Shown here piece by piece: positions 7,518 through 59,238 of a DNA stretch of 64,000 nucleotides. The position numbers were made by a program, and so were the translations under genes. The DNA comes from an uncultured Actinomycetota bacterium (GTDB taxonomy: Bacteria; Actinomycetota; Actinomycetes; DATJPE01), in contig CAWKPB010000007.1 of assembly GCA_963851405.1 (NCBI GenBank), positions 268,780 through 332,779 on the forward strand. Direction: 5' to 3'. Positions within the stretch are counted from its first letter, which is position 1. Every line of letters starts with the position of its first letter. Below the pieces are notes generated by a model, which was not told where the DNA came from, did not search any database, and worked only from the letters and a program-made list of their open reading frames with translations.

Positions 7518-7524
7518 CCCGCCC

Positions 7525-8379
7525 ATGATCCGGACCGCAGTGGTGGCTGGAGTGCTAGCCGGCACTGCAGCCTGGGCCTGGATCAGCGTTTCCCCGTCTT
7601 TGCCCGGCATGCGCCCAGAGAGCAAGCGCCGTCGGCCGAAGACCCTGAGCACGCCTGGACGCTCGGCGGTCTCCATCGGTGGTGTGGCCGTCGGCCTCGT
7701 TGCGGTGCTGGTGGGCTCTGCGCAGGTGGTGGTCACGTTGGTCCTCGTCTCGGTTGGAGCCTTTGCTCTGCGGCAGCGCAGACAGAATCAACGGCTCGCT
7801 TTCGAGCAGCGGTTGGCCGCCGCGGTCGCCGAGGTCGTTGGCTCCCTGGGGGCCGACGTCGCGGCCGGGGCCGTACCACTGGAGTCCCTGTCCGCGGCCG
7901 CGACCGAGTGTGCGTCCTCGTCAGCTGGCTCCGGTCGAACCACTTTGGGTCAGTGCCTGGACGCCGCGGTCTCTGCGGGACGCCTCGGAGGCGATGTCTG
8001 CGGCGAGCTTCGACGGTTGGCCGAGCGGCCGGGCGCCGAGGGCCTTCGCGACCTAGCGATCGCTTGGGAGGTGGCCGAGCGGTGTGGGGCTCGGGTCGCG
8101 GTCGTCCTCGAGGGGGTGATCGAGGGGCTCACCGAGAAGCAGGCCGCACGAAGCGCGGTGGATGCCTCGCTCGCGGGGGCCAGGGCGTCGGCTCGGCTCC
8201 TCGCAGCGCTCCCCGTCTTCGGCCTTGGCATGGGTGCGGCACTGGGTGCCCATCCGTTCGCCTTTCTGGTGGGTCATCCGGTCGGTCGAGGGTGCCTGTT
8301 TGCTGGTCTGGGGCTGGAGGCCACTGGGGTCTGGTGGACGGAACGTCTCGCTGCTGCTGCCAGACGACGGGCCTCATGA
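7525..8379 (+). CDS. tadB: TadB-like pilus assembly inner-membrane protein
   Basis: ATG at 7525 in frame with ORF 7441..8379, just after the tadA stop; hydrophobic N- and C-terminal segments; position in the tad operon. Confidence 0.7.
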   Translation: MIRTAVVAGVLAGTAAWAWISVSPSLPGMRPESKRRRPKTLSTPGRSAVSIGGVAVGLVAVLVGSAQVVVTLVLVSVGAFALRQRRQNQRLAFEQRLAAAVAEVVGSLGADVAAGAVPLESLSAAATECASSSAGSGRTTLGQCLDAAVSAGRLGGDVCGELRRLAERPGAEGLRDLAIAWEVAERCGARVAVVLEGVIEGLTEKQAARSAVDASLAGARASARLLAALPVFGLGMGAALGAHPFAFLVGHPVGRGCLFAGLGLEATGVWWTERLAAAARRRAS

Positions 8380-9113
8380 GCGCGCTGATCGCGGCCGCCT
8401 GTCTCGTGCTGGCTTGCTGCACCTGGCGACCGAGTCGGCCTGGCGCTGCCCGCCTGCGGCGTTTGGTCGCGTCGGTGTCCCCGCCACGAGAACGGCCACC
8501 TTCACGGCTTTCTAGGTCCATTCCGCAGGTCGTTGCCGCGGCTGTGGTCGGGCTGGGCCTCGGCGTGCTCATCGGAGGGCTCTTGGGGCTCGTCGTCGGA
8601 GTGCTCTCACCCGTGGTCGTGGTCCGGACTCTGGCTCATTTGCGTACTCGGGCCGAGAAGGAACGAGTCGAACTCATGCGCGCGGATGTTCCGTTGGTCG
8701 GAGATCTGATGGCCTCGCTGCTTCGTTCGGGCGCTGATCCGCTCAGCGCCGCGGGCGCTGTGGCGTCGTCACTGGATGGACCTTTGGCCGAGGCCATGGA
8801 TGGCTGCGTCCGCTCGCTGCGGTTGGGTGAGCCACCGGACGCGGCATGGGCGCCCTTGATGGACGACGAGGTGACGGCCGCCTTGGTACGTCCGCTGGTT
8901 CGGGCGGCCGAACGCGGTTCGTCCGCTGCCCCGGCCATGGCTCGCGCCAGCGCCGACTTGCGGCGCCAGGCGAGGGCCAGGGCGGCCGCGGCGGCGGACA
9001 CCGTCGCCGTGCGGGCCGTCGGGCCTCTTGGTGTGTGTTTCCTGCCGGCGTTCGTGTTGCTCGCCGTCGTCCCGCTCGTCGCGGGGTGGATTCTGGTCCT
9101 CATCCAAGGTTGA
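8376..9113 (+). CDS. tadC: TadC-like pilus assembly inner-membrane protein
   Basis: ATG at 8376 overlaps the tadB stop (ATGA), in frame with ORF 7908..9113; TM segments at both ends. Confidence 0.7.
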   Translation: MSALIAAACLVLACCTWRPSRPGAARLRRLVASVSPPRERPPSRLSRSIPQVVAAAVVGLGLGVLIGGLLGLVVGVLSPVVVVRTLAHLRTRAEKERVELMRADVPLVGDLMASLLRSGADPLSAAGAVASSLDGPLAEAMDGCVRSLRLGEPPDAAWAPLMDDEVTAALVRPLVRAAERGSSAAPAMARASADLRRQARARAAAAADTVAVRAVGPLGVCFLPAFVLLAVVPLVAGWILVLIQG

Positions 9114-9252
9114 GCACGACTTCTCCACAGGACATAGCGATCCCCAGATGGGGCATCCACGGCTGCGGAACTTGGGAGTTCGGCGGATCGTGAGGTCGGT
9201 CCCGGAAGCGGTCCGGGCGTGACCCCGGTCTCGGCCGGTTGGAGGTCAGCGC

Positions 9253-9462
9253 ATGGTTCTTGTTCCCTCTGTCCCCTCGAAAGACCGCGTACCCCGTCTA
9301 CGGATGGTTGAGTCTCAGGCTGGCTCAGTGACCGCCGAGTATGCCGTCGCGACCGTGGCGGCCTGCGGTTTCGCGGGCGTGCTCTACAAGATCCTCACCT
9401 CGTCTCAGGTCTTGGATCTGGTCGTCTCGTTGTTCACCAAGGCCCTGAGCCTCATCTTCTGA
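9253..9462 (+). CDS. flp: Flp-like prepilin (DUF4244-type small pilin); alternative start 9304
   Basis: 69 aa; ...SQAG/SVTAEYAVATVAACGFAGVL matches the Flp G/XXXXEY processing motif followed by a hydrophobic helix. Confidence 0.6.
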   Translation: MVLVPSVPSKDRVPRLRMVESQAGSVTAEYAVATVAACGFAGVLYKILTSSQVLDLVVSLFTKALSLIF

Positions 9463-9470
9463 CCCGCGCC

Positions 9471-9845
9471 ATGAACGCCGTTCGTAGGACCCCAGCCAGA
9501 GACCGGGGGGCCGCCACCGCCGAGATCGCGGTGGCACTGCCCGTGCTGTTGGCCATCGTTTGGCTGCTCTTGGGGGTCCTTCGGATCGGGCATGCACAGG
9601 TGGACAACCAGGACGCCGCGCGGGCCGCAGCTCGCGCGGCGTCTCGCGGCGAGACCAGCGAAGTCGTACAACGGACGGCCCAGCTTGCAGCCGGCGGCGC
9701 CGACGTATTCATCGAGCGAGTCGATGGTCTCTTGGTCGTCGAGGTGAGCAGTGCGGTCCCGTGGCTCGGCCCCTGGCACCTTGCCCCGGTCACCGTGCGC
9801 GGGCGAGCAGTCGCCTACCCGCAGACATCGATAGGCGCGTCGTGA
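9471..9845 (+). CDS. TadE-like pilus pseudopilin
   Basis: 124 aa; N-terminal RGAATAEIAVALPVLLAIV is a TadE-family signature. Confidence 0.65.
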   Translation: MNAVRRTPARDRGAATAEIAVALPVLLAIVWLLLGVLRIGHAQVDNQDAARAAARAASRGETSEVVQRTAQLAAGGADVFIERVDGLLVVEVSSAVPWLGPWHLAPVTVRGRAVAYPQTSIGAS

Positions 9846-10222
9846 CCGGGCCTCCCCGGCTGCGTGGCGAGCTGGGCTCCGGCTCCATCTGGGTGCTGAT
9901 CGCTGCGCTCATGGTGATGGCCCTCGGGCTGATGGTCGTGCTGACTCTCGGGCTGGCTGCCGCGCGCGCCCGAGCGGCTACCGCAGCCGATCTGGCGGCC
10001 CTGGCGGCCGCGGGATCGCCCCAGGCGGCGTCCCCTTGTGCTCTCGCTGCCCACGTAGCGGCTGCCCACGACGCGGCGCTGCAGCGCTGCCTCGTGCGAC
10101 GCACTCCCCTCGGGTCGATCGTCGACGTCGAGGTCACCACGTCGTGGTCCGTGGCGATTCCTGGCGGTCTTACGGTGCGTTCGCGGGCCGGCCCCGTAGA
10201 AGCGCGCGAAGCAGCCGGGTAG
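9842..10222 (+). CDS. second TadE-like protein ('helicase/secretion neighbourhood' TadE-like)
   Basis: GTG at 9842 overlaps the previous stop (GTGA), in frame with ORF 9560..10222; N-terminal hydrophobic segment WVLIAALMVMALGLMVV; Ala-rich. Confidence 0.55.
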   Translation: MTGPPRLRGELGSGSIWVLIAALMVMALGLMVVLTLGLAAARARAATAADLAALAAAGSPQAASPCALAAHVAAAHDAALQRCLVRRTPLGSIVDVEVTTSWSVAIPGGLTVRSRAGPVEAREAAG

Positions 10223-30047: not shown

Positions 30048-30698
30048 GTGCTTCCCGCGCCGGACTTGGAGTCGCTGGCGGCGATCGCGGTCTACGCGAT
30101 CGTCTGGTCCTTCATCTTCGCCGAGTGCGGGCTGTTCGTCGGCTTCTTGCTCCCCGGCGACACGGTCTTGTTCGCCTCGGGCTTGGTGGCGGCCGCACCG
30201 AACAGTGGAGTCAACATCTGGCTGCTGTGCGCCGGCTCGCTGGTGGCCGCAGTAGCTGGTGACCAGGTTGGCTATCACCTGGGGAAACGGTATGGCAGGT
30301 CTTGGGCGCTGCACCGAGGGGAGGGCCGCATCGCCGGCCACCTGAATCGGGCTGAGCGGTTCTACACCCGATTCGGCTTATGGGCTGTGGTCATCGCTCG
30401 GTGGATTCCGTGGGCACGCACCTTCGTGCCAGGCGTGGCGGGCGCCGCTGACATGGCGCGTGGGAAGTTCCTCGTAGCAAATGTCGCTGGGGCGATCCCA
30501 TGGGCCGTCGGTGTCACGCTGGCGGGGTATGGCACAGCGACCGTCGCGTGGGTTCGCGGGCTCTCGGTGGCCTTGATCGTGTTGAGCCTGTTGCTGGTGA
30601 TCACTGGCGCCGTGGTGTTCGGTGTCCGGACCCGCCGAAGGGGGGAGACCTCCTCAGCTGGTGACAGCGACGGGCCGGCTTCTTTCGGAGGTGTCTGA
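30048..30698 (+). CDS. DedA-family membrane protein
   Basis: GTG start; FLLPGDTVLFASG and ...VIARWIPWARTFVPGVAG are DedA/SNARE-associated signatures. Confidence 0.8.
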   Translation: MLPAPDLESLAAIAVYAIVWSFIFAECGLFVGFLLPGDTVLFASGLVAAAPNSGVNIWLLCAGSLVAAVAGDQVGYHLGKRYGRSWALHRGEGRIAGHLNRAERFYTRFGLWAVVIARWIPWARTFVPGVAGAADMARGKFLVANVAGAIPWAVGVTLAGYGTATVAWVRGLSVALIVLSLLLVITGAVVFGVRTRRRGETSSAGDSDGPASFGGV

Positions 30699-33398
30699 GC
30701 TGCCGAGGAACGCTTCGATGACGCGAGGGTCGCTCTGGACCACGTCGGCCGTCCCTTCCGCGATGACAGCGCCTAGGTCGAGAGCCACGAATCGATCGCA
30801 CACGGCCCTGAGCAGGGTCATGTCATGGTCGATCACGATCATGGTCACTCCGAGTTCGTTGTTGACGTAGCGCAACAGCTCGGCCAGCGCCGGGATCTCG
30901 GAGTGCGCAATCCCGGCCGATGGTTCGTCCAGGAGCAAGACGTCCGGTCCGAGGACAAGGTCACAGCCAAGCTCTGTGAGGCGCCGCAGCCCGGTCGGGA
31001 GAGAGGCGATCGTCTCCCTACGGTAGTCCGTCAACCCCAGTGCTTCGAGAACGACCGCGGGATCGGTCCCCGTCTTTGTTCGCCGGTGGGCGACGGCCAA
31101 CGTCTCCTCGACGGTGAGAGTGGGGAACAGCGCCGCGTTCTGAAAGCTGCGGACGAGGCCGCGTCGAGCGCGCCCCTGGGGCGTGATCGACGTGACGTTT
31201 CGTCCGCGCAGCCTGGTCTGCCCGGAGTCGGGTCGAACGAATCCGGACGCGATCTCAAACAGCGTGGTCTTCCCCGCTCCGTTCGGCCCGATCAAAGCCA
31301 CGGATTCCCCGGCATTGACGACGACGTTCACCCCTCGAACGGCCTGGATGCCTCCAAAGGATCGCGCGATGTCGATCAATTCCAGTGCTGGGTCGTTGGC
31401 TAGTCCTCCCCTGTGTGGTGCCGCGGGCAGCTGGGAGGGGCTGACCGTCGTGGACTTCGGCATCACGCGTGGCGCGTCTCGGACTGGTGTCGGGTCCACG
31501 CCGCGCAGCCGCACGTACTCCTCGACCAGCCAGTCTCGGATCGGTGACAACACCGCCACCAACCCGCCCGAGCGCATGACGACCAACAACAAGAACAGCA
31601 GTTGCAGGATGGCGGTCGGGACGACACCCAGCCCCGCGATAAGGGGCAGGCCAACGACGACGAGGGCACCGATGACCGGTCCCGTCGTGACGGCGAGACC
31701 ACCGACGATCGCCAAAACGACGACCTCGATCGACGCGGTGGCAGGGAACTGCTCCGGAGTTACGAGCTGCTGAGAATGCGCGAGCAGCGACCCGCCGAGC
31801 CCGGCGATTCCTCCGGCTACGGCGAAGGCTTGCAGTTTGCGCCGCTTAACGGGAACCCCGAGCGCTTGGGCGGACTTCTCGTTGTCGCGGATGGCCACCC
31901 AGTCGCGTCCGAGCTGGCTTCCGATGATCCATCGGGTCGCGATCACTGCGAGGACGAGTATCCCGAGGGCCAGCTGGTAATAGAGCGCTGAGTCATCCAA
32001 GCGGAAGGGCCCAATGACCGGCTGAACCGTCTCCCGCCCGCTGCCAAGTGCCCACTCCTGGGGCAGCAGCCACGAACGACCGGCGAGCGCGAAGGCCAAG
32101 GAAACGATGGCCACGACGAACCCGCGTGCGCGAAGGCTGGGGAGTCCGATCACGACCGATACGGCGGCCGCCGTCACCACTGCTGCGAGCGGTCCAAGGA
32201 CGAAGACCCCCGTAGCGGCGACGACCTTGACCGACGCGACGGCGCCGGCCCCGGCCACGGCGAATTGGCCAAGCGAAAGTTGGCCCGCGCGCCCTGTAAG
32301 CACCAGCACCGAGAGACCGACGATCGCGAAGGAGAGGGTCGCGGTCAAAGCGAAGGAGGATGAGCTATCCAGGAATCGTGGCACCCACAGAGCTGCAATG
32401 GCGACCACCAGCGCGCCAGCCAGGGTGCCGAAGTGCCGCACCGCGAAGAAGCGGAGGAACGGCTCTGGAATGCGCGGGAGAGCCAGCGCCGTCCAGTCAC
32501 CGTCATCGTCGGACTCTCGGCCGCTGGACGGAGGGAGCACCATCAAGACGACGAGGGCGACGGCCATCAGAATGAGATCGATGGCTCCGCTCGTGGCGTT
32601 GGCTGTCCGTACGACGGTGTCGACCACGCCGATGGCCACACCGGCTAGGAAAGCGACAGTCACGCTCTCGAAGCGGGCGACGGCGGCGGCCACCAAGCCG
32701 CGAAGCATGAGCGACGGGCCGAGAATCACCAGTGCGCCAAAGCCCTGCGTGGGCCAGAGCAGGATGGCGGCGAACGCAGCGATACCGCCCGCTAGAGCCC
32801 AGGTCCTGCCTGCGACCACGCTGGGTGAGATTCCCAAGCTGTATGCGGCGTCCGGGTTGCTCGCTGTAGCCCGGATCGCCAGGCCGAAGGAGGTTCGCCG
32901 GAGCAGGACGAGCAATCCAAGGACGAGAAGCGGGCTGAGGATGAGTAAGGCGGCATACGGTGGCGTGACTACGAGACCCGCGACCGTGAAGGACGGGAAT
33001 CCTGCCGGTTGTGGGTACTGAGAACCCAGCTGCGCATCGCTGTTGATCGCGAACCCTGCGGCGAGCAGGAACTGACTGAGCAGAAGGGTGACCCCCACTC
33101 CGAGCAACCGCGGCTGACCCTCCAGGCGCCGCACGATGGTGGCCTCGACGGCGGCAGCAATGCCAGCTGCAACCAGCAATCCCACGACGAACGCGATCCA
33201 ATACGGAACGCCGTACTGGACGACCAAGGTCCCGACCAACGCCCCACCAAAAGCGCCCAGCGCGCCTTGGGCGAAATTGATGAACTTGCTGACCTTGTAG
33301 ATCAGGACGAGGCCCACGGCGAGGAGGCCGTAGGGGATCCCGACGACAATCCCCTGCAGCAGGACGGCGACCGACAGATCCATGCCGAAGACGGTCAT
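30654..33398 (-). CDS. fused branched-chain amino acid ABC transporter: LivH-like permease + LivM-like permease + LivG-like ATPase
   Basis: 914 aa; two successive roughly 300-aa polytopic permease domains, then Walker A GPNGAGKTTLFE, LSGG-like signature and Walker B VLLLDEPSAG. Confidence 0.85.
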   Translation of the reverse strand: MTVFGMDLSVAVLLQGIVVGIPYGLLAVGLVLIYKVSKFINFAQGALGAFGGALVGTLVVQYGVPYWIAFVVGLLVAAGIAAAVEATIVRRLEGQPRLLGVGVTLLLSQFLLAAGFAINSDAQLGSQYPQPAGFPSFTVAGLVVTPPYAALLILSPLLVLGLLVLLRRTSFGLAIRATASNPDAAYSLGISPSVVAGRTWALAGGIAAFAAILLWPTQGFGALVILGPSLMLRGLVAAAVARFESVTVAFLAGVAIGVVDTVVRTANATSGAIDLILMAVALVVLMVLPPSSGRESDDDGDWTALALPRIPEPFLRFFAVRHFGTLAGALVVAIAALWVPRFLDSSSSFALTATLSFAIVGLSVLVLTGRAGQLSLGQFAVAGAGAVASVKVVAATGVFVLGPLAAVVTAAAVSVVIGLPSLRARGFVVAIVSLAFALAGRSWLLPQEWALGSGRETVQPVIGPFRLDDSALYYQLALGILVLAVIATRWIIGSQLGRDWVAIRDNEKSAQALGVPVKRRKLQAFAVAGGIAGLGGSLLAHSQQLVTPEQFPATASIEVVVLAIVGGLAVTTGPVIGALVVVGLPLIAGLGVVPTAILQLLFLLLVVMRSGGLVAVLSPIRDWLVEEYVRLRGVDPTPVRDAPRVMPKSTTVSPSQLPAAPHRGGLANDPALELIDIARSFGGIQAVRGVNVVVNAGESVALIGPNGAGKTTLFEIASGFVRPDSGQTRLRGRNVTSITPQGRARRGLVRSFQNAALFPTLTVEETLAVAHRRTKTGTDPAVVLEALGLTDYRRETIASLPTGLRRLTELGCDLVLGPDVLLLDEPSAGIAHSEIPALAELLRYVNNELGVTMIVIDHDMTLLRAVCDRFVALDLGAVIAEGTADVVQSDPRVIEAFLGSSDTSERSRPVAVTS

Positions 33399-34714
33399 GC
33401 CTGTGCCTCAGCCATCTCGACCGTTCCGGCCAGGTAGGCGCGGGTCAGTAGGTCGGGGCTTCTCCGGAGGACCTCCGAGGGCTCGGACAGCGTGATCCGA
33501 CCGCGCTCCATGACGAGCACCTGAGAAGCGAGCTGAAGCGCGACGTTTGCGGACTGCTCCACGAGGAGGACCGCCGTGCCGGTTGCGGCGACCGACCTAA
33601 TCAGGTCGACCAATTGGCTCACGATGCGAGGCGCCAGGCCGAGGGAGAACTCGTCGACGAGCAGAACGGCTGGCGGATCGAGAAACGCGCGAGTGAGTGC
33701 CAGCATCTGCTGCTCACCACCGGAGAGGGTGCCGGCCTGCTGGCCCGCTCTTTCGCGAAGCCAAGGAAAGGATGCCTCGACGTGCGCGGTGCGTTCTTCG
33801 CGCGTCCGACGATCCAGCCGGTGCGGAAAACACCGAGAGGTTGTCTGCGACGGTGAGGGGCGGGAACACCGCGTGCCCTCCGACGACGAGGCCCAGTCCC
33901 GAACTCGGCGCGTCCAGCCGGAGTTAGGCCCGTGACGTCGTGCCCGCCCATCGGATCGAGCCCGCGAGAGGACGTTCCAGGCCCGCGAGGGTGCGGAGTG
34001 TGGTCGTCTTGCCTGCTCCGTTGTTCCCGAGCAAAGCCACGATGTGCCGGGCGCGATCGCGAAGGTGACGTCGAAGAGCACCTGTACCGGTCCAAGGGCA
34101 ACGGACAGGCGGTGGCGGCCAGGGCCGGGGGTCGGCGGGTGCGGGTTCGCTGGCGATCGTGTTCCAGGCATCTGCGCATCCGGGGAGACCAGAGTCCGGA
34201 TGTCAGCCTTCAGGGTCGGCCGGTCACTCGGTGGACGGCGCCGAGCGAGGATGAGGGCGACGATCACGTGAATCCCGATCATGACGTACGCGGTGAAAGA
34301 GAGCACGGTGTACATCGGCTCCTTGCCCACCGCGGTCTGCGCCAGCATGAAGACCAGCAGGATGACGTAAGCGGCGTAGCCGTTGATGGTCCGCAGATTC
34401 GCGCGTCGGGGAGGGAATCCGAACACGTAGAAGGAGTAGGCGGCATGCGTGAACAGGACGAGTGTCGCGGTGACCTGGATGGCCACATTGAACGCGGACA
34501 GCCATGAACCGAGCACACCGTCGGGATTCTGATCGTGCAGCCAGCTCACGAGATAGCTCGCGGGAAACACCACGACAAGGGCGACCCCGAGCCGACGGTT
34601 CCAGCGGGTGATGGAACGCTTGCGGCCGGTCCGGGCGACCAGCTGCGCGCTGTTCGCTCGCGTGGCGCACGGGTGCCGCGTGCGGCGGCGGGCCAGGGGC
34701 AGCGTCTGCGCCAC
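33395..34714 (-). pseudogene. disrupted livF-type ABC ATPase (multiple frameshifts) joined in-frame to an upstream roughly 4-TM membrane domain
   Basis: The C-terminal half is intact in frame (TLSGGEQQMLAL..., Walker B LLVDEFSLGLAP, VLLVEQSAN). Walker [35 protein letters not shown] and LGLVVGGHAVFPPLTVADNL each lie in different frames between about 33800 and 34080. The N-terminal roughly 160 residues are hydrophobic and unrelated to LivF. Confidence 0.6.
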
Positions 34715-34849
34715 GGGGTGTTTCGCGGGCGGAACGCGTTCACATTTCGCACAATGTATGACAGGCTCCCTCCGTGCGCGCAGACCCTGACGCGCACGAC
34801 ATTGGGATGACGTCCACCCGAAGGAGCATGCCGCAGGCCCACTCGCGCA

Positions 34850-36176
34850 CGTCCGGCCGGTCGCCCTGCCCTGCTGCTGCCCTGTTTGCTAGCGGCGTGC
34901 ACCACCACCGGATCGACGCCGACCCAACCCGGCGCGGAGGACGCAGCCGCAACGGCGGGAGTGCCCGGGCCGGGGGTCACGGCCGACACGATCACGGTGG
35001 GGTGCTCGTCCTCGCTGGCGCCAACACCGCCGGCTCTGGCGGTTTCGTCGTGTCGCCCCAGGGCGACACGCAAGCAGCAGGCGCAGGTGGTGATCGACAC
35101 ATCAACGATCAGGGGCGGCATCGCCGGCCGACAAGTCAAGCCTGTCTGCGGGAGTTTGACTCCTCGACCTCGTCGCCCACGACAGAGACCGCCGTCTGCA
35201 CGTCGTTTACCCAGGACGACGAGGTGTTCGCGGTGATCGCTGCTCGGCCAGCGCACCAACGCGGCGCGCTCCTGCTACCAGAAGGCCGAGACTACGTTCC
35301 TCGACGTCTCGCAAGCCGCTCAGCCGTCCTCGATCTACACGGAATCTCGCGCCGTACTACTGGACGCCGAACTCGGTGCCCTCGACTCGCGACGAAGAGC
35401 TGATCACGGACCTAGGCGCGAGTGACGGCTTCTGCCGGGGCGCCAAGGTCGGCGTCCTCGTCGAGAAGGATCCGAGCTTCGAGGGCGTCTACGACGAAGT
35501 TGTGACCCCGGCACTGCAGCAGCTCGGGGCCACGGCAGTCCCGCGGACGATCGACCAGAGCACCTCGGAGAACGCGATTCGCCACGGCGGGCGTCCGCGG
35601 CCTCGTCCTTCCAGAAGGCGCGGGGTCGACCATGTGCTGTTCCTCGGGCGACCGGACAACGTGGGGCTACTTCACGACCTTCACCGACTCAGCAGAACTA
35701 CTACCCGACGCTCGATCCGGCGCTTCGAGACACCCAAGTTCATGGCGCAGAACCCGTCCGTGTATCCGGCGAAGTCGCTGTCTGGCGCTCAGGGAATCGG
35801 ATTCTTGCCCGACGTCGATGAGGTCCCCGACTACGCCTTCCCTGCCCCCGGTGCGGAGACCACCTGCATCAACATCTTGGGAGATGCTGGCATCACCTTC
35901 GAGGGTCGAGCCGAGGCGAAGACCGCGCTGCGATTCTGTGACGGCCTGATGTTCCTAAAAACCGTGGGAGACCAGATTGGGCCCGATGGGGTGATGAACG
36001 CAGCGAACATGGCCGCGGTCGCGGCTGGCCTCGGGTCTACGTGGCAGGCGGCCACCACCCTGGGGACGTCGTTTGGGACCGAGGGTGCCACGACGTACGC
36101 GCCTGGAGCCGGGTACCGGACTCTCGTCTACGACGGAGTGTTTGCCTACGACGGCGACACCAAGAACTTCAGCTGA
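34850..36176 (+). pseudogene. disrupted Liv-type periplasmic substrate-binding lipoprotein (at least four frameshifts)
   Basis: Lipoprotein signal LLLPCLLAACTTTGS and GVTADTITVG in one frame; VLVLAGANTAGSGG and TQDDEVFAVIAA in a second; GIAGRQVKP in the first again. The 3-prime 800 nt (ORF 35376..36176) is a single frame resembling the SBP C-terminal lobe. Confidence 0.55.
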
Positions 36177-36188
36177 GGAGGACGAGAG

Positions 36189-36932
36189 ATGTCGATGTCT
36201 GCGCAGAACTGGTTCTTCTTGCTCCTGGCCTGCGCCGCAGTGGGCTTGATGGTTCTCGCCATTCGAACGGCACACCGCGGGAAGGCGGTGAAGGTCTCAG
36301 ACTCGTGGCTGCTCGTTGTGGTGCTGACGGGGCTCGTCTACGACAACGCGATGCTGGCTTTCGGATCGAGCCTCGGCGAGGGCACCCTGACCATGGTGCT
36401 GTCCGCGCCACGCTTCGTCCTCCACGGTCTCTTCACGCCGCTGCTCATCATGTTCGCGGCGCTCTCCGCTGATCGCATGGACGTGCCTGGGTATCGGGAC
36501 AGAGAACGAATCACGCTCTGGGGGGCGATCGCATTCGTCGCCGTCTTGGTGGGCCTGGTCAACGACATCGTGCAGTTGTCACTGACCCCGACGGTCAGTC
36601 AGGGGATTCTCAGCTACAAACACCTGGACGGCGGACCACCTGTGGCGGAGATCATTACGGTCGTCTCCTTGCTCGTGATCGGCGGTGTGATGCAGCGGTA
36701 TGCGCGTTGGCCGTGGGTCTTCGTTGGAGCCGCCCAGATGTTCGTCATCGCCGCGTTCTACGTGTCCAACACCTTCCTCGCGAATCTCGGCGAGCTCGTG
36801 TTGCTCTCCTGCATGGTCGCGACCGGGATGGCAGCGGTGACCCGCACTGCAGCGGAGCGAGATGCGCGCCGGGAGGCCGCGCTGAGTCGTCGCTCGAAGC
36901 GGAGCCCGACGCCAATGTCCACCGGATCATGA
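36189..36932 (+). CDS. integral membrane protein (hypothetical, 6-7 TM)
   Basis: 247 aa, mostly hydrophobic helices, RBS-like ggagga upstream; no recognisable motif. Confidence 0.5.
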   Translation: MSMSAQNWFFLLLACAAVGLMVLAIRTAHRGKAVKVSDSWLLVVVLTGLVYDNAMLAFGSSLGEGTLTMVLSAPRFVLHGLFTPLLIMFAALSADRMDVPGYRDRERITLWGAIAFVAVLVGLVNDIVQLSLTPTVSQGILSYKHLDGGPPVAEIITVVSLLVIGGVMQRYARWPWVFVGAAQMFVIAAFYVSNTFLANLGELVLLSCMVATGMAAVTRTAAERDARREAALSRRSKRSPTPMSTGS

Positions 36933-37002: not shown

Positions 37003-37725
37003 ATGTCCGTAGCCGGCGCCTCGCCACCCGTCGCTGGTCTGGATCGGGGCACGCTACGTGAGCGGTTGGCGGCCATCATCCGCACGGACATCGTCGCCGG
37101 TGTCTTCAAACAAGGTGAGCAGTTGCGTACGGAGACCTTGGTCAGCCGCTACAACGTGAGCAATACCCCTGTACGAGAAGCTCTCGGAGTCCTCGCTAGT
37201 GAGGGCTTGGTGGAGATGCGGACCAACCGCGGGGCCTGGGTCAGCCAGGTGACCAAGAACGACGCCGAGGGGCTGCTCCAGGTGGCTGCGCTGCTCAACG
37301 TGACGGCGTACGAGCGGGGGATCCCGCGCCTGACGGACACCGACATCGCGTTGCTCAGTCAGCACGCTGACGAGGCGATGCGCGCTCAGTTGGCTGGAGA
37401 CGTGCCGCGCGCCATGGGGTGTGCCCACCGGATCCACGACGTGGTTCTTAGCGCCGCCGGCAACCCTGAGTTGGTTCGCATCCTGCGCCAGATCCAGCCA
37501 CGGCTCGATCGGCTGGTTCGGATGCTGTACACCGCTGACGGCTCCGCTGAGCGTCGTGGCGTCCCGATCACTGCCGCCGAGACCGACCACTTGGCCATCG
37601 TGCGAGCGCTGGAGGCCGGCCACCGCGACGAGGCGATCGGGTTGGTCCGCGGGGCTTGGGAGGCGTTCGTGCAGGCCGTGGCGTTGGCCCCTGAGGCCGC
37701 GTTCGCGGACCAGCTGAGCCAGTAG
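37003..37725 (+). CDS. GntR-family transcriptional regulator (FadR/FCD subfamily)
   Basis: wHTH LRTETLVSRYNVSNTPVREALGVLASEGLVE followed by an all-helical FCD-like C-domain. Confidence 0.85.
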   Translation: MSVAGASPPVAGLDRGTLRERLAAIIRTDIVAGVFKQGEQLRTETLVSRYNVSNTPVREALGVLASEGLVEMRTNRGAWVSQVTKNDAEGLLQVAALLNVTAYERGIPRLTDTDIALLSQHADEAMRAQLAGDVPRAMGCAHRIHDVVLSAAGNPELVRILRQIQPRLDRLVRMLYTADGSAERRGVPITAAETDHLAIVRALEAGHRDEAIGLVRGAWEAFVQAVALAPEAAFADQLSQ

Positions 37726-37842
37726 GGCTCTTCGGCTTTCGCAGGATTTAGCAAAATGCTTGATCTGAGGCTCGAGCCGTGGCAGGGTGACATGTACGGA
37801 ACATGGTTCCACCCACTGAGACAACTTCCGTTGGAGTCAGAC

Positions 37843-38349
37843 ATGCACAAGACGGCCCTCGCCCGAGGCGCGACTGGCGCCTTCGCCGCACTCATGCTCG
37901 CGAGCCTCGTGGTCCCGAACACGGCGACCGCGTCAACGACAGCCGCGCCGAGCGTGAAGCAGGCTGGCGTGGAACTTCAGGGCAAGGCGCCTTCGTACAC
38001 CGTGAACAAGCCCGCCCCTTACCGGAAGGGCCAACGCGTGACGGTCACCTTCCGCCACTTCCCCAAGAACAAGACGCTCCTTATCGCGGTCTGCCGCGCC
38101 CGTACCGACTTGTCGCGCGGGGCGGAGGCCGTCGGAGACTGCGCGCCTTTCGCTGGCCCGAGCTCGGAGTTCGCGACCAGCAACGGCAAGGGCAACGGCA
38201 AGGGCAAGGTCACGATTCTGCGCGGCAAGTTGCACGCGGCCAACTGGCCGGGCTACCGCTGTGGAAACAAGAAGAAGAACCGATGCGTCCTCGTCGTGTC
38301 CGACCTGTCGGCAAAGCATGTGGTGAAGAAGAAGCTCACCTACACGTAA
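37843..38349 (+). CDS. secreted protein with one neocarzinostatin-like (NCS-family) beta-sandwich domain
   Basis: ATG at 37843 after ggag; signal peptide ...VVPNTATA; domain GQRVTVTFRHF...IAVCRA...GDCAPF...GKGKVTI...YRCGNKKKNRCVLVVSD, with the four-Cys spacing and V(t)V-x-G...C...C...D pattern of the NCS family. Confidence 0.6.
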   Translation: MHKTALARGATGAFAALMLASLVVPNTATASTTAAPSVKQAGVELQGKAPSYTVNKPAPYRKGQRVTVTFRHFPKNKTLLIAVCRARTDLSRGAEAVGDCAPFAGPSSEFATSNGKGNGKGKVTILRGKLHAANWPGYRCGNKKKNRCVLVVSDLSAKHVVKKKLTYT

Positions 38350-38407
38350 TCAAGGAACAGTCAGCACACAGTCCAGCCAACAGTCCCATCAAGGGGAGGA
38401 ACCCCAC

Positions 38408-39451
38408 GTGTCCAGACTTGCCAAGCGCCTTGCGATCGGCGCCGCCTCTGCGGTCATGGTCGCCGTCGCCCTCGGCTCACCGAGCGTTGCGGCGGCAGCG
38501 CCGTCCCTGACCTTGTCCGACTACGGTCCGTTCGTGAACGGAGACTCGACCACCGTTTCTTGGGACGGCTTCCCGGCGTCGGAGATGGTCATCGTGGCTG
38601 TGTGCAAGAAGGCCACGGTCCTGACCGGACCTGGCGACTGCGCCGGCGCCGCCGACAGCGCCAAGGTGGTGATGTCTTCAGCCGCTGGGGCTGGTTCGGT
38701 CGACCTGACGGTCATCCGCGGGGACCTGGGCTCCACGCCCGCATGGAAGTGTCGCCCCGGGGACGGTCACGAGTGCGACATCGTGGTCTCGAACTTCACG
38801 GGTACCTCCATCGCGAAAACCCCCATTGTGTACGCCGCCACGATCACCTCCCTGTCACCGGATGGTCGCTACGCCGGTGGCGAGACGGTGAAGATCAAAT
38901 TCTCGGGGGCTGGCAAGAACCAGACCAACCCGCCGGTCGCAGCTTTCATCTGTGATGCAGATGTTCCTCTTGGCGACGGCAGCCTGGCCTGTGACTTCAC
39001 TGCCTTTGGTCCCGCCACCGTCGATGCCTCGGGCAACGGAGTGGCCAAACTAACCATTGTTCGCGGGGCGATCGGCAATGCCCTCGGTTCGAAGTGTGGG
39101 AACAAGGCTGGAAACAAGTGCGACATCGTGATCACGGACTTCAATGGACGCCTCTTGGCCACCACGCCGATCAAGTTCTTCAAGCAGCAGTCGGTTGATG
39201 GGGTGCCGAAGAAGGTCGTTCGGGGCGAGAAGGTCTCACTCCCGCGTGAGACGGTCCAGGGCAAGAAGCTCAAGTGGGTCAGCAAGTCCGAGGCGACCTG
39301 TGTCATCAAGAAGGTGTCGAAGAACGGGAAGACGACCTACAAGGCCAAGGGCCTCAAGGTCGGGACCTGCTCGCTCGTCGCCAAGGCGAACGGCGGCGCG
39401 AAGTACGCCTCGCTGCGTTCGCCTGAGTCGCTGAAGGTCGTCAAGCCCTAA
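38408..39451 (+). CDS. secreted protein with two tandem neocarzinostatin-like domains plus a C-terminal Lys-rich beta domain
   Basis: GTG start after aaggggagga; signal peptide; two repeats each with ...VAVCKK...GDCAGA...KCRPGDGHECDIVVSNF and ...AAFICDAD...LACDF...KCGNKAGNKCDIVITDF; paralog of the preceding gene. Confidence 0.6.
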   Translation: MSRLAKRLAIGAASAVMVAVALGSPSVAAAAPSLTLSDYGPFVNGDSTTVSWDGFPASEMVIVAVCKKATVLTGPGDCAGAADSAKVVMSSAAGAGSVDLTVIRGDLGSTPAWKCRPGDGHECDIVVSNFTGTSIAKTPIVYAATITSLSPDGRYAGGETVKIKFSGAGKNQTNPPVAAFICDADVPLGDGSLACDFTAFGPATVDASGNGVAKLTIVRGAIGNALGSKCGNKAGNKCDIVITDFNGRLLATTPIKFFKQQSVDGVPKKVVRGEKVSLPRETVQGKKLKWVSKSEATCVIKKVSKNGKTTYKAKGLKVGTCSLVAKANGGAKYASLRSPESLKVVKP

Positions 39452-56356: not shown

Positions 56357-56965
56357 GTGGTCGAACCGATCGCGATGCCCGCGAGGTCGTCTCTGCCGGA
56401 CTTCGATCTGGAGCGCGCTGAGGCGGCCGTGCGGGAGCTCCTGCTCGCAGTCGGGGAGGACCCAGACCGCGAAGGGCTGCTGGAGACACCTGCCCGAGTG
56501 GCCCGGATGTACAGCGAGGTGTTCGCGGGCCTGCGGCAGCAGCCCAGCGATGTTCTGAACACGACGTTCGACCTGGGCCACGACGAATTGGTGTTGGTGC
56601 GCGACATCGAGGTCTGGAGTCAGTGCGAGCATCACCTGGTTCCGTTCTTCGGGAAGGCTCACGTCGGCTACATCCCCAGCGCTGACGGGCGCATCACCGG
56701 TTTGTCGAAGTTGGCGCGGCTGGTGGACGTCTTCGCCAAGCGCCCTCAGGTCCAGGAAAGGCTCACGACCCAGGTAGCGGAAGCCTTGGTCGACGAACTC
56801 GGTCCACGCGGCGTCATCGTGGTGTTCGAGTGCGAACACCTGTGCATGGCGATGCGGGGCGTCAAGAAGCCCGGCTCGATCACCGTCACGTCCGCGGTTC
56901 GTGGCCAACTGAGGGATCCTGCGACCCGTGCCGAGGCCATGAGCCTGATCCTCGCCGGTCGATGA
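56357..56965 (+). CDS. folE: GTP cyclohydrolase I
   Basis: QCEHHLVPF and HVGYIP signatures; 202 aa. Confidence 0.95.
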
Positions 56966-57870
56966 CCAACCACACGGTCTTGGCGCGGCGGCCTAGGGTC
57001 GGTCCCGTGAGCAACCCGCGGGAGCCCTTGGGTCTACCCGGTCATCTGCGTGGCTTGGGGCGCACCGTCGTGATGGGCGTCCTCAACGTGACGCCGGACT
57101 CCTTCTCTGACGGCGGCAGATACGAGAGCCTCGGCGCAGCCGTCGATCACGGGCTCGCCCTGGCCGACCAAGGGGCTGACCTCATTGACGTCGGCGGAGA
57201 GTCCACGCGGCCAGGCGCGGAGCGGGTTCCCGAATCGGTCGAGCAGGCCCGAGTCCTGCCTGTCGTGCGCGCACTGGTGGCGCAAGGTGTGTCGGTCAGT
57301 GTGGACACGATGCGGGCGACCACCGCGGTGGCCGCAGTCGACGACGGCGCCGTCGTGATCAACGACGTGTCCGGCGGTCTAGCCGACCCATCCATGCTGG
57401 CCCAGGTTGCTCGGTTGGCAGTCCCCTACGTCGCGATGCACTGGCGGGGCCCGAGCGCCTCCATGGAGTCGCGGGCCACCTACGCCGATGTCGTGGCAGA
57501 GGTGCGCGACGAGCTTTCGCTTCGGCTCGTGGCTGCCGTAGAACTCGGGATTGACCCGGCGCGCATGATCCTCGACCCGGGGCTCGGCTTCGCGAAAACC
57601 GCGGAGCACAACTGGACCCTGTTGGCGCACCTTGAGCAGCTGGAGTCCCTCGGCCGCCCGTTGCTGATCGGTGCGTCACGCAAACGGTTCCTCGGTGCTG
57701 TGCTGGCTGACTCAACGTCGGGGGATCGTCCTCACGCGGGACGCGACACGGCCACCGATGCCGTCAGCGCTCTCGCGGCCCGGGCGGGCGTCTGGTGCGT
57801 GCGTGTGCACGACGTGAGCGGAAGCCTGGACGCGGTCCGGGTCGCCGCTGCTTGGCGGGCGGCCCAATGA
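56962..57870 (+). CDS. folP: dihydropteroate synthase
   Basis: ATG at 56962 overlaps the folE stop; [16 protein letters not shown] and [11 protein letters not shown] pterin-binding motifs. Confidence 0.9.
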
Positions 57871-58232
57871 CCCTCGACCGGGTGGCGCTGCGTGGGCTGC
57901 GGGCCCGAGGCCGCCATGGCTGGTACGACCGGGAGCGAGCCGACGGTCAGATCTTCCTCGTGGACGTGGTTCTCCACCTCGACACAACTCCGGCGGCGGC
58001 GAGTGACCACCTGAACGACACGGTTGACTACGGACTGCTTGGCGAACGAGTCGTCGCTGTCGTCGAGGGCGAGTCGGTGCGGCTGCTCGAGACCCTCGCC
58101 CAACGGATCGCCGACCAGTGTCTGAGCGATCCGCGTGTGGTCCAGGTCGAAGTGACCGTCCACAAACCAGACGCCCCCATGACCGTGGGCTTCGATGACG
58201 TCGAGGTGTGCATCGTTCGGGGGCAGTTATGA
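57867..58232 (+). CDS. folB: dihydroneopterin aldolase
   Basis: ATG at 57867 overlaps the folP stop; ...GWYDRERADGQIFLVDV...DYGLL, typical of FolB; 121 aa. Confidence 0.85.
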   Translation: MTLDRVALRGLRARGRHGWYDRERADGQIFLVDVVLHLDTTPAAASDHLNDTVDYGLLGERVVAVVEGESVRLLETLAQRIADQCLSDPRVVQVEVTVHKPDAPMTVGFDDVEVCIVRGQL

Positions 58233-58774
58233 CCGAAGCACCCGGAGATCCGCGGCGGGCCGTGCTCTCGCTGGGATCCAACCTCGGCGAACGCGAGAAC
58301 TTCCTCCTGGGGGCGGTCCAGGCTCTGTCAGACATGCCCGGGATCGTTCCGGTCGCGGTGTCTTCGGTCTACGAGACAGCCCCCGTGGGTGGTGTGGACC
58401 AGCCGTTGTATCTCAATGCCGTGCTCCTCATCGACACGACGCTGTCCCCGGTCGAGTTGATGGACGCGGCGCTGGTCGTCGAGGCTGCCCACGGACGAGT
58501 CCGCGCCGAGCGACGGGGGCCGCGCACGCTGGACGTCGACATAGTTGCCGTCGGGGACGAGGTCTCGGACGACCCGGCGATCACTCTCCCGCACCCCCGG
58601 GCTCACGAGCGGGCCTTCGTGCTCGTCCCCTGGGCCGAGCTCGATCCGGACGCGTCGTTGCCGCGCTGGGGAAGCGTCCTGGAGTTGCTCGGTACCCTTT
58701 CGCCCGCGGACCGCGGTTCGGTTCGGCTGTTCACCGGTCTGCACCTGACGGTGGGGCCGGGGCCGGGGCAGTGA
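58229..58774 (+). CDS. folK: 2-amino-4-hydroxy-6-hydroxymethyldihydropteridine pyrophosphokinase
   Basis: ATG at 58229 overlaps the folB stop; SLGSNLG...YETAPVGG...RTLDVDIV...HPRAHERAFVLVPW HPPK motifs. Confidence 0.85.
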   Translation: MTEAPGDPRRAVLSLGSNLGERENFLLGAVQALSDMPGIVPVAVSSVYETAPVGGVDQPLYLNAVLLIDTTLSPVELMDAALVVEAAHGRVRAERRGPRTLDVDIVAVGDEVSDDPAITLPHPRAHERAFVLVPWAELDPDASLPRWGSVLELLGTLSPADRGSVRLFTGLHLTVGPGPGQ

Positions 58775-59238
58775 CCGCGACCACCTGGCGCACCTTGCTC
58801 GGCTGGGCCGCCACTGGCGCGCTCCTTGGATGGCTATTTGCGCGCTTCGTCTACATTGCTCGTGGCGAGGTCGCCAGCGTGCCCTTCACGGCCGCGATGG
58901 TCTTGGCGGTAGCGGGAGTCGCTCTGATCTACACGGCGTTCCGCAGTCGTGCGCGCCTCGAGGGCAGGCAGGGGACCAAGCCGCTGCCGCCCTTGGTCGG
59001 CGCCCGGTTGGCCGCCTTGGGTTTGGCGGCCTCCCGGGTCGGGGCCCTCGTCGCCGGCGGCTATGCGGGATACGCGCTGTTCCTCCTTGGTGATTTGACG
59101 ACCGACTACCGAAGGGACGTCGCGCTCCGCTGCCTGTTGTGCATTCTCGGAGCGACCATCTTCATCATTGGAGCCTTGTTCCTGGAGCACGTTCTCAAGC
59201 TTCCAGAGGACTCCGACGAGGTGTCGGCGACCGGGTAG
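58771..59238 (+). CDS. DUF3180-like small membrane protein, last gene of the fol operon
   Basis: GTG at 58771 overlaps the folK stop; four predicted TM helices; conserved position after folK in Actinobacteria. Confidence 0.6.
   Translation: MTATTWRTLLGWAATGALLGWLFARFVYIARGEVASVPFTAAMVLAVAGVALIYTAFRSRARLEGRQGTKPLPPLVGARLAALGLAASRVGALVAGGYAGYALFLLGDLTTDYRRDVALRCLLCILGATIFIIGALFLEHVLKLPEDSDEVSATG

What the first reader, a model, noticed from the sequence alone, without database searches (positions are those of the whole stretch)
33395..36176. Decaying Liv-type ABC transporter locus: intact fused permease/ATPase gene flanked by a multiply frameshifted livF and a multiply frameshifted binding-protein gene
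Conserved LivF blocks (Walker A, the HDVTGL...AEFG block, the LGLVVGG...TVADNL block and the LSGGEQQ signature with Walker B) are all present but sit in three different reading frames within about 400 nt. A lipoprotein-type branched-chain amino acid binding protein on the other strand likewise switches frame at least four times (LAACTTTGS/GVTADTITVG, then VLVLAGANTAGSGG, then GIAGRQVKP, then TQDDEVFAVIAA). Every other gene in the 64 kb window is intact. The damage is therefore local and looks like genuine pseudogenisation, or a locally error-rich assembly region, rather than global sequence quality.
Basis: seen in the sequence. Interest (0 to 1): 0.55.

Follow-up and report, generated by a model that had tools for sequence, protein, structure and literature searches.

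The report
Frameshift-riddled transporter genes: assembly error patch
Two neighbouring transporter genes are broken by about twenty single-base frameshifts packed into 1.9 kb, but the pattern points to a badly polished stretch of a long-read assembly and not to real gene decay, so the finding is ordinary.

Summary
A frameshift-aware protein-to-DNA alignment finds 6 firm frame changes (plus 1 possible) in the LivF-type gene, 33395-34714 (-). That gene also carries a conserved N-terminal 4-helix membrane domain. The binding-protein gene, 34807-36176 (+), has 12 firm changes (plus 2 possible). All lie between 33,818 and 35,714, about 1 per 100 nt. The same method finds none in 6.6 kb of flanking conserved coding sequence.

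The interpretation as decay is not supported:
- Once the frames are corrected there is no stop codon.
- Residues invariant among intact homologues are kept as well inside the damaged stretches as outside (175/189 versus 157/176).
- Only about 5 of 16 indels could be homopolymer slips, against 79% of natural small indels in simple repeats in Mycobacterium smegmatis.
- The damage ignores gene boundaries.

A related public long-read contig (L081) shows the same signature. It has patches of mostly non-homopolymer 1-nt insertions inside an EPSP-synthase-family gene (MurA or AroA) and methylmalonyl-CoA mutase, next to clean stretches.

Best reading: a locally unpolished or low-support patch in the deposited assembly (about 0.88). 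Genuine pseudogenes: about 0.08. Only the reads can settle it. Interest is low.

The parts
30654..33398 (-). Intact LivH-LivM-LivG fusion gene (914 aa): two BPD_transp_2 permease domains plus an ABC ATPase with the BCA_ABC_TP_C tail.
   Evidence: Pfam. Full-length alignment without frameshifts to the 916- and 920-aa homologues of L082 and L081, 68-70% identity.
33395..34714 (-). Gene for a four-helix membrane domain fused to a LivF-type ATPase. The 439-aa ORF is open, but two internal stretches are out of frame: about 55 nt in the linker (34113-34168) and about 225 nt (33821-34045) that include Walker A.
   Evidence: The raw ORF matches only positions 97-134 of Pfam ABC_tran (27 bits). The frame-corrected protein matches positions 2-134 of 137 (87 bits). 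P0021 is this exact ORF in NCBI/ENA.
33818..33824 (-). +1 nt event (GCA-C-CGG-CTG).
33891..33906 (-). +1 nt event (TTC-GGGA-CTG).
33949..33953 (-). -1 nt event (ATC-CG.-ATG-GGC-GGG), possibly in a G run.
34044..34045 (-). -1 nt event just before Walker A (GGC-AC.-ATC-GTG).
34109..34113 (-). -1 nt event in the linker (GCC-AC.-CGC-CTG). It forms a compensating pair with the event at 34168.
   Evidence: seen with references P0026, P0027, P0029.
34165..34174 (-). +1 nt event (ATG-C-CTG-GAA).
34637..34658 (-). Possible further +1 event in the poorly conserved N-terminus. Not firm.
34807..36176 (+). Gene for a lipoprotein-type solute-binding protein, about 454 aa once corrected. It is split over three frames by at least 12 indels, all before 35715.
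   Evidence: Intact homologues P0001-P0006 are 445-464 aa. P0007 is the exact 266-aa 3' ORF in NCBI/ENA.
34843..34885 (+). Frame change inside the signal peptide (frame of the ATG at 34807 to the frame of LLAAC). The position is not resolved.
34997..35004 (+). -1 nt event in a G run (GGTGGGGTG).
35071..35083 (+). +1 nt event.
35138..35148 (+). -1 nt event.
35239..35245 (+). +1 nt event (ATC-G-CTG-CTC).
35342..35345 (+). +1 nt event.
35376..35423 (+). Possible compensating pair of events, seen with only some references. Not firm.
35577..35689 (+). Five +1 nt events within 113 nt (35577, 35593, 35615-35624, 35664, 35686). They lie inside the ORF that looks open at 35376-36176.
35714..35714 (+). 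-2 nt event (CTC-G..-ATC). This is the last event. 35715-36176 is clean.
33818..35714 (.). The error-rich patch as a whole: 18 firm events in 1,894 nt (0.95 per 100 nt). It starts inside one gene and ends inside the other.
36189..36932 (+). Conserved syntenic 247-aa membrane protein, intact. Context only.
37003..37725 (+). Conserved syntenic GntR/FCD regulator, intact. Context only.

Best explanation
The two genes are most likely intact in the organism. The frameshifts are consensus errors in the deposited assembly: a stretch of about 1.9 kb (33.82-35.71 kb) whose base calls rest on too little or too discordant long-read support, so single-base insertions and deletions survive at roughly raw-read frequency (about 1 per 100 nt). 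The flanks are well polished.

Shown here: the number, position and type of the indels; their confinement to one patch; the undiminished protein conservation once frames are corrected; and the same signature in a related public long-read contig.

Inferred: the technical cause. Candidates are a local coverage drop, a stretch bridged by one or a few reads, or discordant reads from co-occurring strains. It is also an inference that the window's contig comes from that kind of assembly.

The underlying biology is an ordinary, conserved Liv/Urt-type (HAAT-family) ABC uptake system: a LivH-LivM-LivG fusion, a membrane-domain-LivF fusion, a divergently transcribed lipoprotein binding protein, a conserved 247-aa membrane protein and a GntR/FCD regulator.
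For: 1. Indels without substitutions. After frame correction there are 0 stop codons in 812 codons. Residues invariant among intact homologues are kept at 142/155 (binding protein) and 33/34 (LivF) inside the indel-rich stretches. In the clean stretches of the same genes the figures are 67/84, 48/49 and 42/43. In the damaged zone, identity of the corrected binding protein to homologues (71-74%) equals the cross-clade identity among the intact homologues themselves (72-73%). With the 4.1 substitutions per indel measured in M. smegmatis (856 versus 207, PMC4938668), about 42 changed invariant sites are expected and 14 are seen (P = 4e-8).

2. Context. At most about 5 of 16 resolvable indels can be read as length changes of a run of 3 or more identical bases (my reading). 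In M. smegmatis 78.7% of natural small indels lie in simple repeats. P = 6e-5.

3. Distribution. All 12 binding-protein events lie in the first 908 of 1,370 nt (P = 0.007). The 6 LivF events span 348 of 1,320 nt (P = 0.006). There are 0 events in 6,651 nt of flanking conserved coding sequence tested with the same method. The patch starts and ends inside genes.

4. Positive control. L081 (ENA+NCBI ERZ25039597, contig_1292, 2.1 Mb) was compared with the intact orthologous locus L082 from JGI. It carries 11 frameshifts in an EPSP-synthase-family gene (MurA or AroA), 27 in methylmalonyl-CoA mutase, and 3, 4, 2 and 8 in four other genes. In-frame identity ranges from 73% to 96% and there are no stops. 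The 8.5 kb between these patches has essentially none. Of the 69 1-nt insertions in those patches, 52 are not next to an identical base. That proportion is indistinguishable from the window's (Fisher P = 0.75). A second contig of the same ENA series (L085, ERZ25039600) has a single +1 frameshift in its binding-protein gene.

5. The window's broken ORFs are listed under the same pair of sources (NCBI + ENA), from a 501,922-bp contig.

6. Literature. Long-read assemblies retain indels that fragment gene calls, especially below about 40-fold coverage (PMC9262707; proovframe preprint 10.1101/2021.08.23.457338, abstract).
Against: - No reads, depth profile or second assembly of this organism could be examined. 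The closest relatives in the databases are only 60-70% identical, so the key test was not possible.
- The sequencing technology of the window's contig is not known. Its link to the L081/L085 project rests only on the same source labels.
- Nanopore consensus errors are usually described as homopolymer errors, whereas most events here are not. The L081 control shows empirically that non-homopolymer insertion patches do occur in such records.
- The excess of insertions over deletions does not discriminate: M. smegmatis has a natural 2.1-fold insertion excess.
- The absence of new stop codons is only weak evidence on its own (P about 0.06-0.2 at 3-5 substitutions per indel).
- A 470-nt stretch (34168-34640, the membrane domain) inside the patch is free of events.
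Confidence: 0.88

Rival explanations
1. Genuine, very recent pseudogenisation. The organism has stopped using this uptake system, and the LivF-type and binding-protein genes are accumulating real frameshift mutations while the permease fusion happens to be still intact.
For: - Both broken genes belong to one transporter, so loss of one would relax selection on the other.
- The lesions are in the public record.
- The rest of the window is clean, so this is not global poor quality.
- A natural insertion excess exists in an MMR-less actinobacterium.
Against: - About 18 indels with no detectable excess of amino-acid changes at invariant sites (14 seen against about 42 expected, P = 4e-8).
- No stop codons.
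- Indel contexts unlike the natural spectrum (P = 6e-5).
- Events are clustered inside parts of genes. The 3' third of the binding-protein gene, the 3' 420 nt of livF and the whole 2.7-kb permease gene are untouched.
- No deletion larger than 2 nt.
- The identical signature occurs in an EPSP-synthase-family (MurA or AroA type) gene and other core metabolic genes of a related public contig.
Confidence: 0.08
2. A real but localised burst of indel mutagenesis, for example one tract of error-prone repair synthesis across about 2 kb, that hit this spot once and recently.
For: It would explain clustering that ignores gene boundaries and the lack of accompanying substitutions.
Against: - I know of no bacterial repair process that leaves about 1 indel per 100 nt with almost no base substitutions (own knowledge, not tested).
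- The same pattern recurs in several separate patches of another contig, inside core metabolic and biosynthetic genes. That is not credible as biology.
Confidence: 0.03
3. Recoding: the genes are expressed through programmed ribosomal frameshifting or transcriptional slippage.
For: None beyond the conservation of the protein sequence across frames.
Against: - About 18 shifts of mixed sign (+1, -1, -2) at sites with no shared slippery motif.
- All homologues are encoded in single frames.
Confidence: 0.005

Closest known systems
Residual indel (frameshift) errors in long-read genome and metagenome assemblies
   Same: Single-base indels fragment gene calls while the encoded protein, read across frames, stays fully conserved. 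The errors are worse where support is low (PMC9262707; proovframe abstract). The same pattern was seen directly in L081.
   Different: The literature stresses homopolymer errors spread along a genome. Here, and in L081, the errors are mostly non-homopolymer single-base insertions concentrated in kilobase-sized patches next to clean sequence. The technical cause of that patchiness was not established.
Bacterial pseudogenes formed by neutral decay (as in Mycobacterium leprae or recently host-restricted bacteria; own knowledge)
   Same: Multiple frameshifts relative to intact homologues in a non-essential transporter.
   Different: No stop codons, no excess replacement at invariant residues, no larger deletions, a non-natural indel context, and clustering unrelated to gene boundaries.
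LivFGHM-LivJ/K and UrtABCDE, the HAAT family of ABC importers
   Same: The underlying locus has two BPD_transp_2 permease domains, a LivG/UrtD-like ATPase with the BCA_ABC_TP_C tail, a LivF/UrtE-like ATPase and a Peripla_BP_6-type lipoprotein.
   Different: - LivH, LivM and LivG are fused into one 914-aa protein.
- The LivF-like ATPase carries an extra N-terminal four-helix membrane domain with no Pfam family.
- The binding-protein gene is divergently transcribed.
- Scores are far below the NCBIfam equivalog cut-offs (LivF 192 versus 441; UrtE 189 versus 286), so the substrate is unknown.

Membership tests
Assembly or consensus indel-error patch (artefact) | Indels are not accompanied by the substitutions that real neutral decay would bring. 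| tested here: met
   Invariant residues kept at 175/189 inside the indel zones and 157/176 outside. There are 0 stops in 812 corrected codons.
Assembly or consensus indel-error patch (artefact) | The error type matches that of a demonstrably erroneous assembly from a comparable source. | tested here: met
   L081 patches: 69 1-nt insertions, 52 of them not next to an identical base, inside an EPSP-synthase-family (MurA or AroA type) gene, the methylmalonyl-CoA mutase gene and others. The window has about 5/16 in runs. Fisher P = 0.75.
Assembly or consensus indel-error patch (artefact) | The distribution follows a physical stretch of the contig, not gene boundaries. | tested here: met
   All events lie between 33818 and 35714, starting and ending inside genes. 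There are 0 events in 6,651 nt of flanking conserved coding sequence.
Assembly or consensus indel-error patch (artefact) | Low or discordant read support at the indel sites. | not testable with these tools
   No reads are available. The window's own contig could not be retrieved.
Genuine bacterial pseudogene | The reading frame is disrupted relative to intact orthologues. | tested here: met
   Intact syntenic loci are L081-L084.
Genuine bacterial pseudogene | Relaxed constraint: excess replacements, or stop codons, in the disrupted frame. | tested here: not met
   14 changed invariant sites against about 42 expected at 4.1 substitutions per indel (P = 4e-8). No stop codons (ratio from PMC4938668).
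Genuine bacterial pseudogene | Indel spectrum typical of replication slippage, mostly in homopolymers or simple repeats. | tested here: not met
   At most about 5/16, against 78.7% in M. smegmatis mutation-accumulation lines.
Genuine bacterial pseudogene | The same lesions are present in independent assemblies or sister strains. | not testable with these tools
   No relative closer than about 60-70% identity was found in 5.8 billion proteins or in the species-representative genomes.
HAAT (Liv/Urt-type) ABC importer | Two BPD_transp_2 permease domains plus a LivG-type ATPase with the BCA_ABC_TP_C tail. | tested here: met
   PF02653 (2 stretches), PF00005 and PF12399 in the 914-aa fusion.
HAAT (Liv/Urt-type) ABC importer | A second, LivF/UrtE-type ATPase. 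| tested here: met
   The corrected protein matches ABC_tran positions 2-134 of 137. The best NCBIfam hits of the intact homologue P0025 are LivF (192 bits) and UrtE (189 bits), both below the equivalog cut-offs. This is membership at family level only.
HAAT (Liv/Urt-type) ABC importer | A Peripla_BP_6-type solute-binding protein. | tested here: inconclusive
   PF13458 is precomputed for P0001 and P0004-P0006 and flagged weak. My own Pfam scan at E <= 0.001 found nothing for the corrected protein or for the intact P0002.
HAAT (Liv/Urt-type) ABC importer | Branched-chain amino acid (or urea) as substrate. | not testable with these tools
   No equivalog-level match.

The most novel reading that the evidence does not exclude
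The indels are real. A single recent event of highly indel-prone DNA synthesis (an error-prone repair tract of about 2 kb) inactivated two adjacent transporter genes at once. It left about one indel per 100 nt and almost no substitutions. That would be a localised mutational signature not described in bacteria.
Probability: 0.03. Interest if true: 0.55.

Novelty: not a real feature. Interest (0 to 1): 0.07.

Why it matters
Biologically it matters little. The locus is an ordinary Liv/Urt-type uptake system that is almost certainly intact in the cell.

Practically it is a caution. The two genes are deposited as a scrambled 439-aa 'ATPase' and a 266-aa fragment (P0021, P0007). Such patches would be counted as pseudogenes or as missing binding proteins in comparative analyses. 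The L081 control shows that kilobase-sized insertion-rich patches occur in public long-read contigs even inside core metabolic genes. Apparent local gene decay in such records should therefore be checked against reads before it is interpreted.

Tried and rejected
1. Sister-strain comparison. The genome-contig scan with the 914-aa fusion returned only about 30%-identical proteobacterial loci. Exact look-ups of the window's own proteins returned nothing. Protein searches found no relative closer than about 60-70% identity. The decisive comparison was therefore not possible.

2. Collapsed-allele hypothesis. I tested whether the extra bases are both alleles of wobble-position polymorphisms collapsed into the consensus. 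In L081 the insertion slots were 22 at codon boundaries, 10 between codon positions 2 and 3, and 9 between positions 1 and 2. This is not clearly different from random, so the idea is not supported.

3. Insertion excess as evidence against natural origin. Dropped after reading that M. smegmatis has a 2.1-fold natural insertion excess.

4. Absence of new stop codons as a stand-alone test. It is too weak (P 0.06-0.2 at realistic ratios).

5. Repeat or paralogue in the window that might explain failed polishing. None found, and homopolymer density in the patch is not elevated.

6. Other frameshifted genes in the window. Every frame switch flagged by a coding-potential Viterbi scan fell at a boundary between separate ORFs. 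Most of these ORFs carry complete Pfam domains: Tad pilus genes, folP-folB-DUF3180 (with an untested folK-position ORF between them), STAS/anti-sigma kinase, ApbE, Ferric_reduct and a Nuo51-like protein. A few have no Pfam family.

7. Paper search for the ENA/SRA accessions of the related contigs. No hits.
Full report
WHAT IS THERE

The region lies in a high-GC (about 65%) actinobacterial window. ORF listing and six-frame translation show three things.
- An intact 914-aa gene at 30654-33398 (-).
- An open 439-aa ORF at 33395-34714 (-), whose middle part makes no sense as protein.
- A set of overlapping ORF fragments on the + strand between 34.8 and 36.18 kb.

Pfam assigns the 914-aa protein two BPD_transp_2 permease domains, an ABC ATPase and the branched-chain C-terminal tail. 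It is a LivH-LivM-LivG fusion. The 439-aa ORF matches only the last quarter of the ABC_tran model, and the + strand fragments match nothing.

INTACT RELATIVES AND SYNTENY

A search with a rough concatenation of the + strand fragments found intact 445-464-aa binding proteins at about 60% identity (P0001-P0006). It also found P0007, which is exactly the window's 266-aa 3' ORF, from an NCBI/ENA contig of 501,922 bp.

The contigs that encode P0001 and P0002 (L081-L084) show the same gene order as the window:
- a 916-920-aa LivHMG fusion;
- a 446-450-aa protein with an ABC ATPase domain;
- a divergent binding-protein gene;
- a 250-aa membrane protein;
- a GntR/FCD regulator;
- two secreted proteins.

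The 'livF' gene is therefore a conserved fusion of an about 170-aa four-helix membrane domain with a LivF-type ATPase. About twenty clusters of 417-458 aa have this architecture. P0021 is the window's scrambled ORF verbatim. The frameshifts are thus part of the public record. No closer relative than 60-70% identity exists in the collections searched.

PLACING THE INDELS

I wrote a protein-to-DNA dynamic-programming aligner that allows codons of 1, 2, 4 or 5 nt.

In the binding-protein gene (ATG at 34807, stop at 36176), four references give 11 concordant events between 34997 and 35714:
- -1 at 34997;
- +1 at 35077;
- -1 at 35147;
- +1 at 35242;
- +1 at 35342;
- five +1 events at 35577-35686;
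- -2 at 35714.

There is one more frame change in the signal peptide and a possible compensating pair near 35376/35402. Nothing follows 35714.

In the membrane-LivF gene, six events are concordant: 33821 (+1), 33900 (+1), 33953 (-1), 34045 (-1), 34113 (-1) and 34168 (+1). A seventh near 34650 is possible.

That makes 18 firm events in 1,894 nt. The same aligner finds none in the LivHMG fusion, the 247-aa membrane protein, the GntR regulator or the two secreted proteins. Together with the undamaged ends of the two broken genes, that is 6,651 nt of clean coding sequence.

Elsewhere in the window, a coding-potential Viterbi scan recovered the known patch. Every other frame change it flagged fell at a boundary between separate ORFs, most of which carry complete Pfam domains.

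DECAY OR ERROR?

Four lines of evidence bear on this.

1. Conservation.
   - Once the frames are joined there is no stop codon in 812 codons, and GC3 stays at 0.82-0.85.
   - Of columns invariant in six intact binding proteins, the window keeps 142/155 in the indel-rich part and 67/84 in the clean 3' part. For the LivF fusion (12 homologues) the figures are 33/34 in the indel-rich part, against 48/49 and 42/43 elsewhere.
   - Identity of the corrected binding protein to homologues in the damaged part (71-74%) equals the identity between the two intact clades (72-73%).
   - The corrected LivF fusion recovers a full ABC_tran match.
   - In mutation-accumulation lines of M. smegmatis, an actinobacterium without mismatch repair, there were 856 substitutions to 207 small indels (PMC4938668). 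At that ratio about 70 substitutions should accompany the indels, and about 42 invariant sites should have changed. Only 14 have, which is fewer than the background rate in the clean parts (P = 4e-8).

2. Context.
   - In that same study 78.7% of small indels lay in simple repeats.
   - Here at most about 5 of 16 resolvable events can be read as run-length changes. Several are plainly not, for example GCG-A-TTC, ACC-G-ACT and ATC-G-CTG.
   - P = 6e-5.

3. Distribution.
   - The events cluster within parts of genes. The probability of the observed clustering under uniform decay is 0.007 for the binding-protein gene and 0.006 for the LivF gene.
   - The 2.7-kb permease gene of the same operon is untouched.

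4. A positive control.
   - L081 is a 2.1-Mb contig named in the style of a long-read assembler. It comes from an ENA+NCBI record (ERZ25039597), the same pair of sources as the window's contig.
   - Against the intact JGI locus L082 it shows 11 frameshifts in an EPSP-synthase-family gene (MurA or AroA type), 27 in methylmalonyl-CoA mutase, and 3, 4, 2 and 8 in four other genes. Almost all are +1. In-frame identity is 73-96% and there are no stops. The intervening 8.5 kb, which includes the whole Liv locus, is essentially clean.
   - At DNA level, 52 of the 69 single-base insertions in those patches are not adjacent to an identical base. That proportion is indistinguishable from the window's.
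   - Dozens of frameshifts in such core metabolic genes cannot be biology, so this signature is an assembly artefact that occurs in this kind of record.
   - A second contig of the same ENA series (L085) has one +1 frameshift in its binding-protein gene.
   - Published work agrees that long-read consensus sequences retain indels that fragment genes, especially at low coverage (PMC9262707; proovframe abstract).

WHAT DOES NOT DISCRIMINATE, AND WHAT REMAINS OPEN

- The insertion excess (about 11 insertions to 6-7 deletions) is also natural in M. smegmatis.
- The lack of new stops is weak evidence alone.
- I could not establish why the errors are patchy. There is no repeat or paralogue in the window, and homopolymer density is not raised.
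- The idea that both alleles of wobble polymorphisms were written into the consensus was not supported by the codon-phase distribution in L081.
- The technology behind the window's contig is not known, and no reads could be seen. The artefact reading is therefore strongly supported but not proven.

VERDICT

The 'decaying locus' reading is not supported.

The underlying system is a conserved Liv/Urt-type ABC importer with unusual but conserved fusions. Its best NCBIfam matches are LivF/UrtE and LivG/UrtD, far below the equivalog cut-offs, so the substrate is unknown.

Novelty: not a real feature. Interest is low.

Noticed in passing
window 34170-34640 (-); homologues P0022-P0040: The LivF-type ATPase carries a conserved N-terminal domain of about 170 aa with four predicted membrane helices (motifs RWNRRLG and HAAYSFYVFGFP). 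It has no Pfam or NCBIfam family. About 20 protein clusters of 417-458 aa share this architecture, always next to a LivH-LivM-LivG triple fusion in the loci examined.
   Followed up: partly
window 36189-36932 (+): A conserved 247-aa multi-pass membrane protein lies immediately downstream of the binding-protein gene in all syntenic loci. It has no Pfam or NCBIfam hit, yet it is 61% identical to P0013, which JGI names 'bacteriorhodopsin'. L082's copy has a weak NrsF hit. Its function and its link to the transporter are unknown.
   Followed up: partly
L081 1738-3197 and 12148-16402: The public contig ERZ25039597 contig_1292 contains kilobase-sized patches of single-base insertions, about 1 per 100 nt. 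They break an EPSP-synthase-family gene, methylmalonyl-CoA mutase, a cobalamin adenosyltransferase and a histidine phosphatase. An 8.5-kb stretch between the patches is clean. The cause of the patchiness is unexplained.
   Followed up: partly
L085 8464-9814 (-), event near 8660: In ERZ25039600 contig_26854 the orthologous binding-protein gene has a single +1 frameshift and was not called as a full-length gene. Whether this is an error or real was not determined.
   Followed up: partly
(database look-up, not sequence): The cluster listed for the binding protein P0001 contains members that are not binding proteins at all. P0013, P0015, P0017 and P0018, of about 250 aa, appear to be homologues of the neighbouring membrane protein (checked directly only for P0013). 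The cluster table appears to mix neighbouring genes.
   Followed up: partly
window 37756-39451 (+): Two adjacent secreted proteins of 197 and 347 aa lie here. The homologue of the shorter one (p176) matches three successive places (37873-38343, 38432-38833, 38786-39178), so a domain of about 140 aa is repeated. It is weakly Neocarzinostatin-like in L082's gene calls.
   Followed up: no
window 6357-10222 (+) and 56830-59238 (+): Ordinary intact operons serve as internal quality controls. The first is a Tad/Flp pilus cluster (T2SSF, DUF4244 Flp, TadE, TadG-like). The second is folP-folB-DUF3180, with an untested ORF at the usual folK position between folB and DUF3180.
   Followed up: partly
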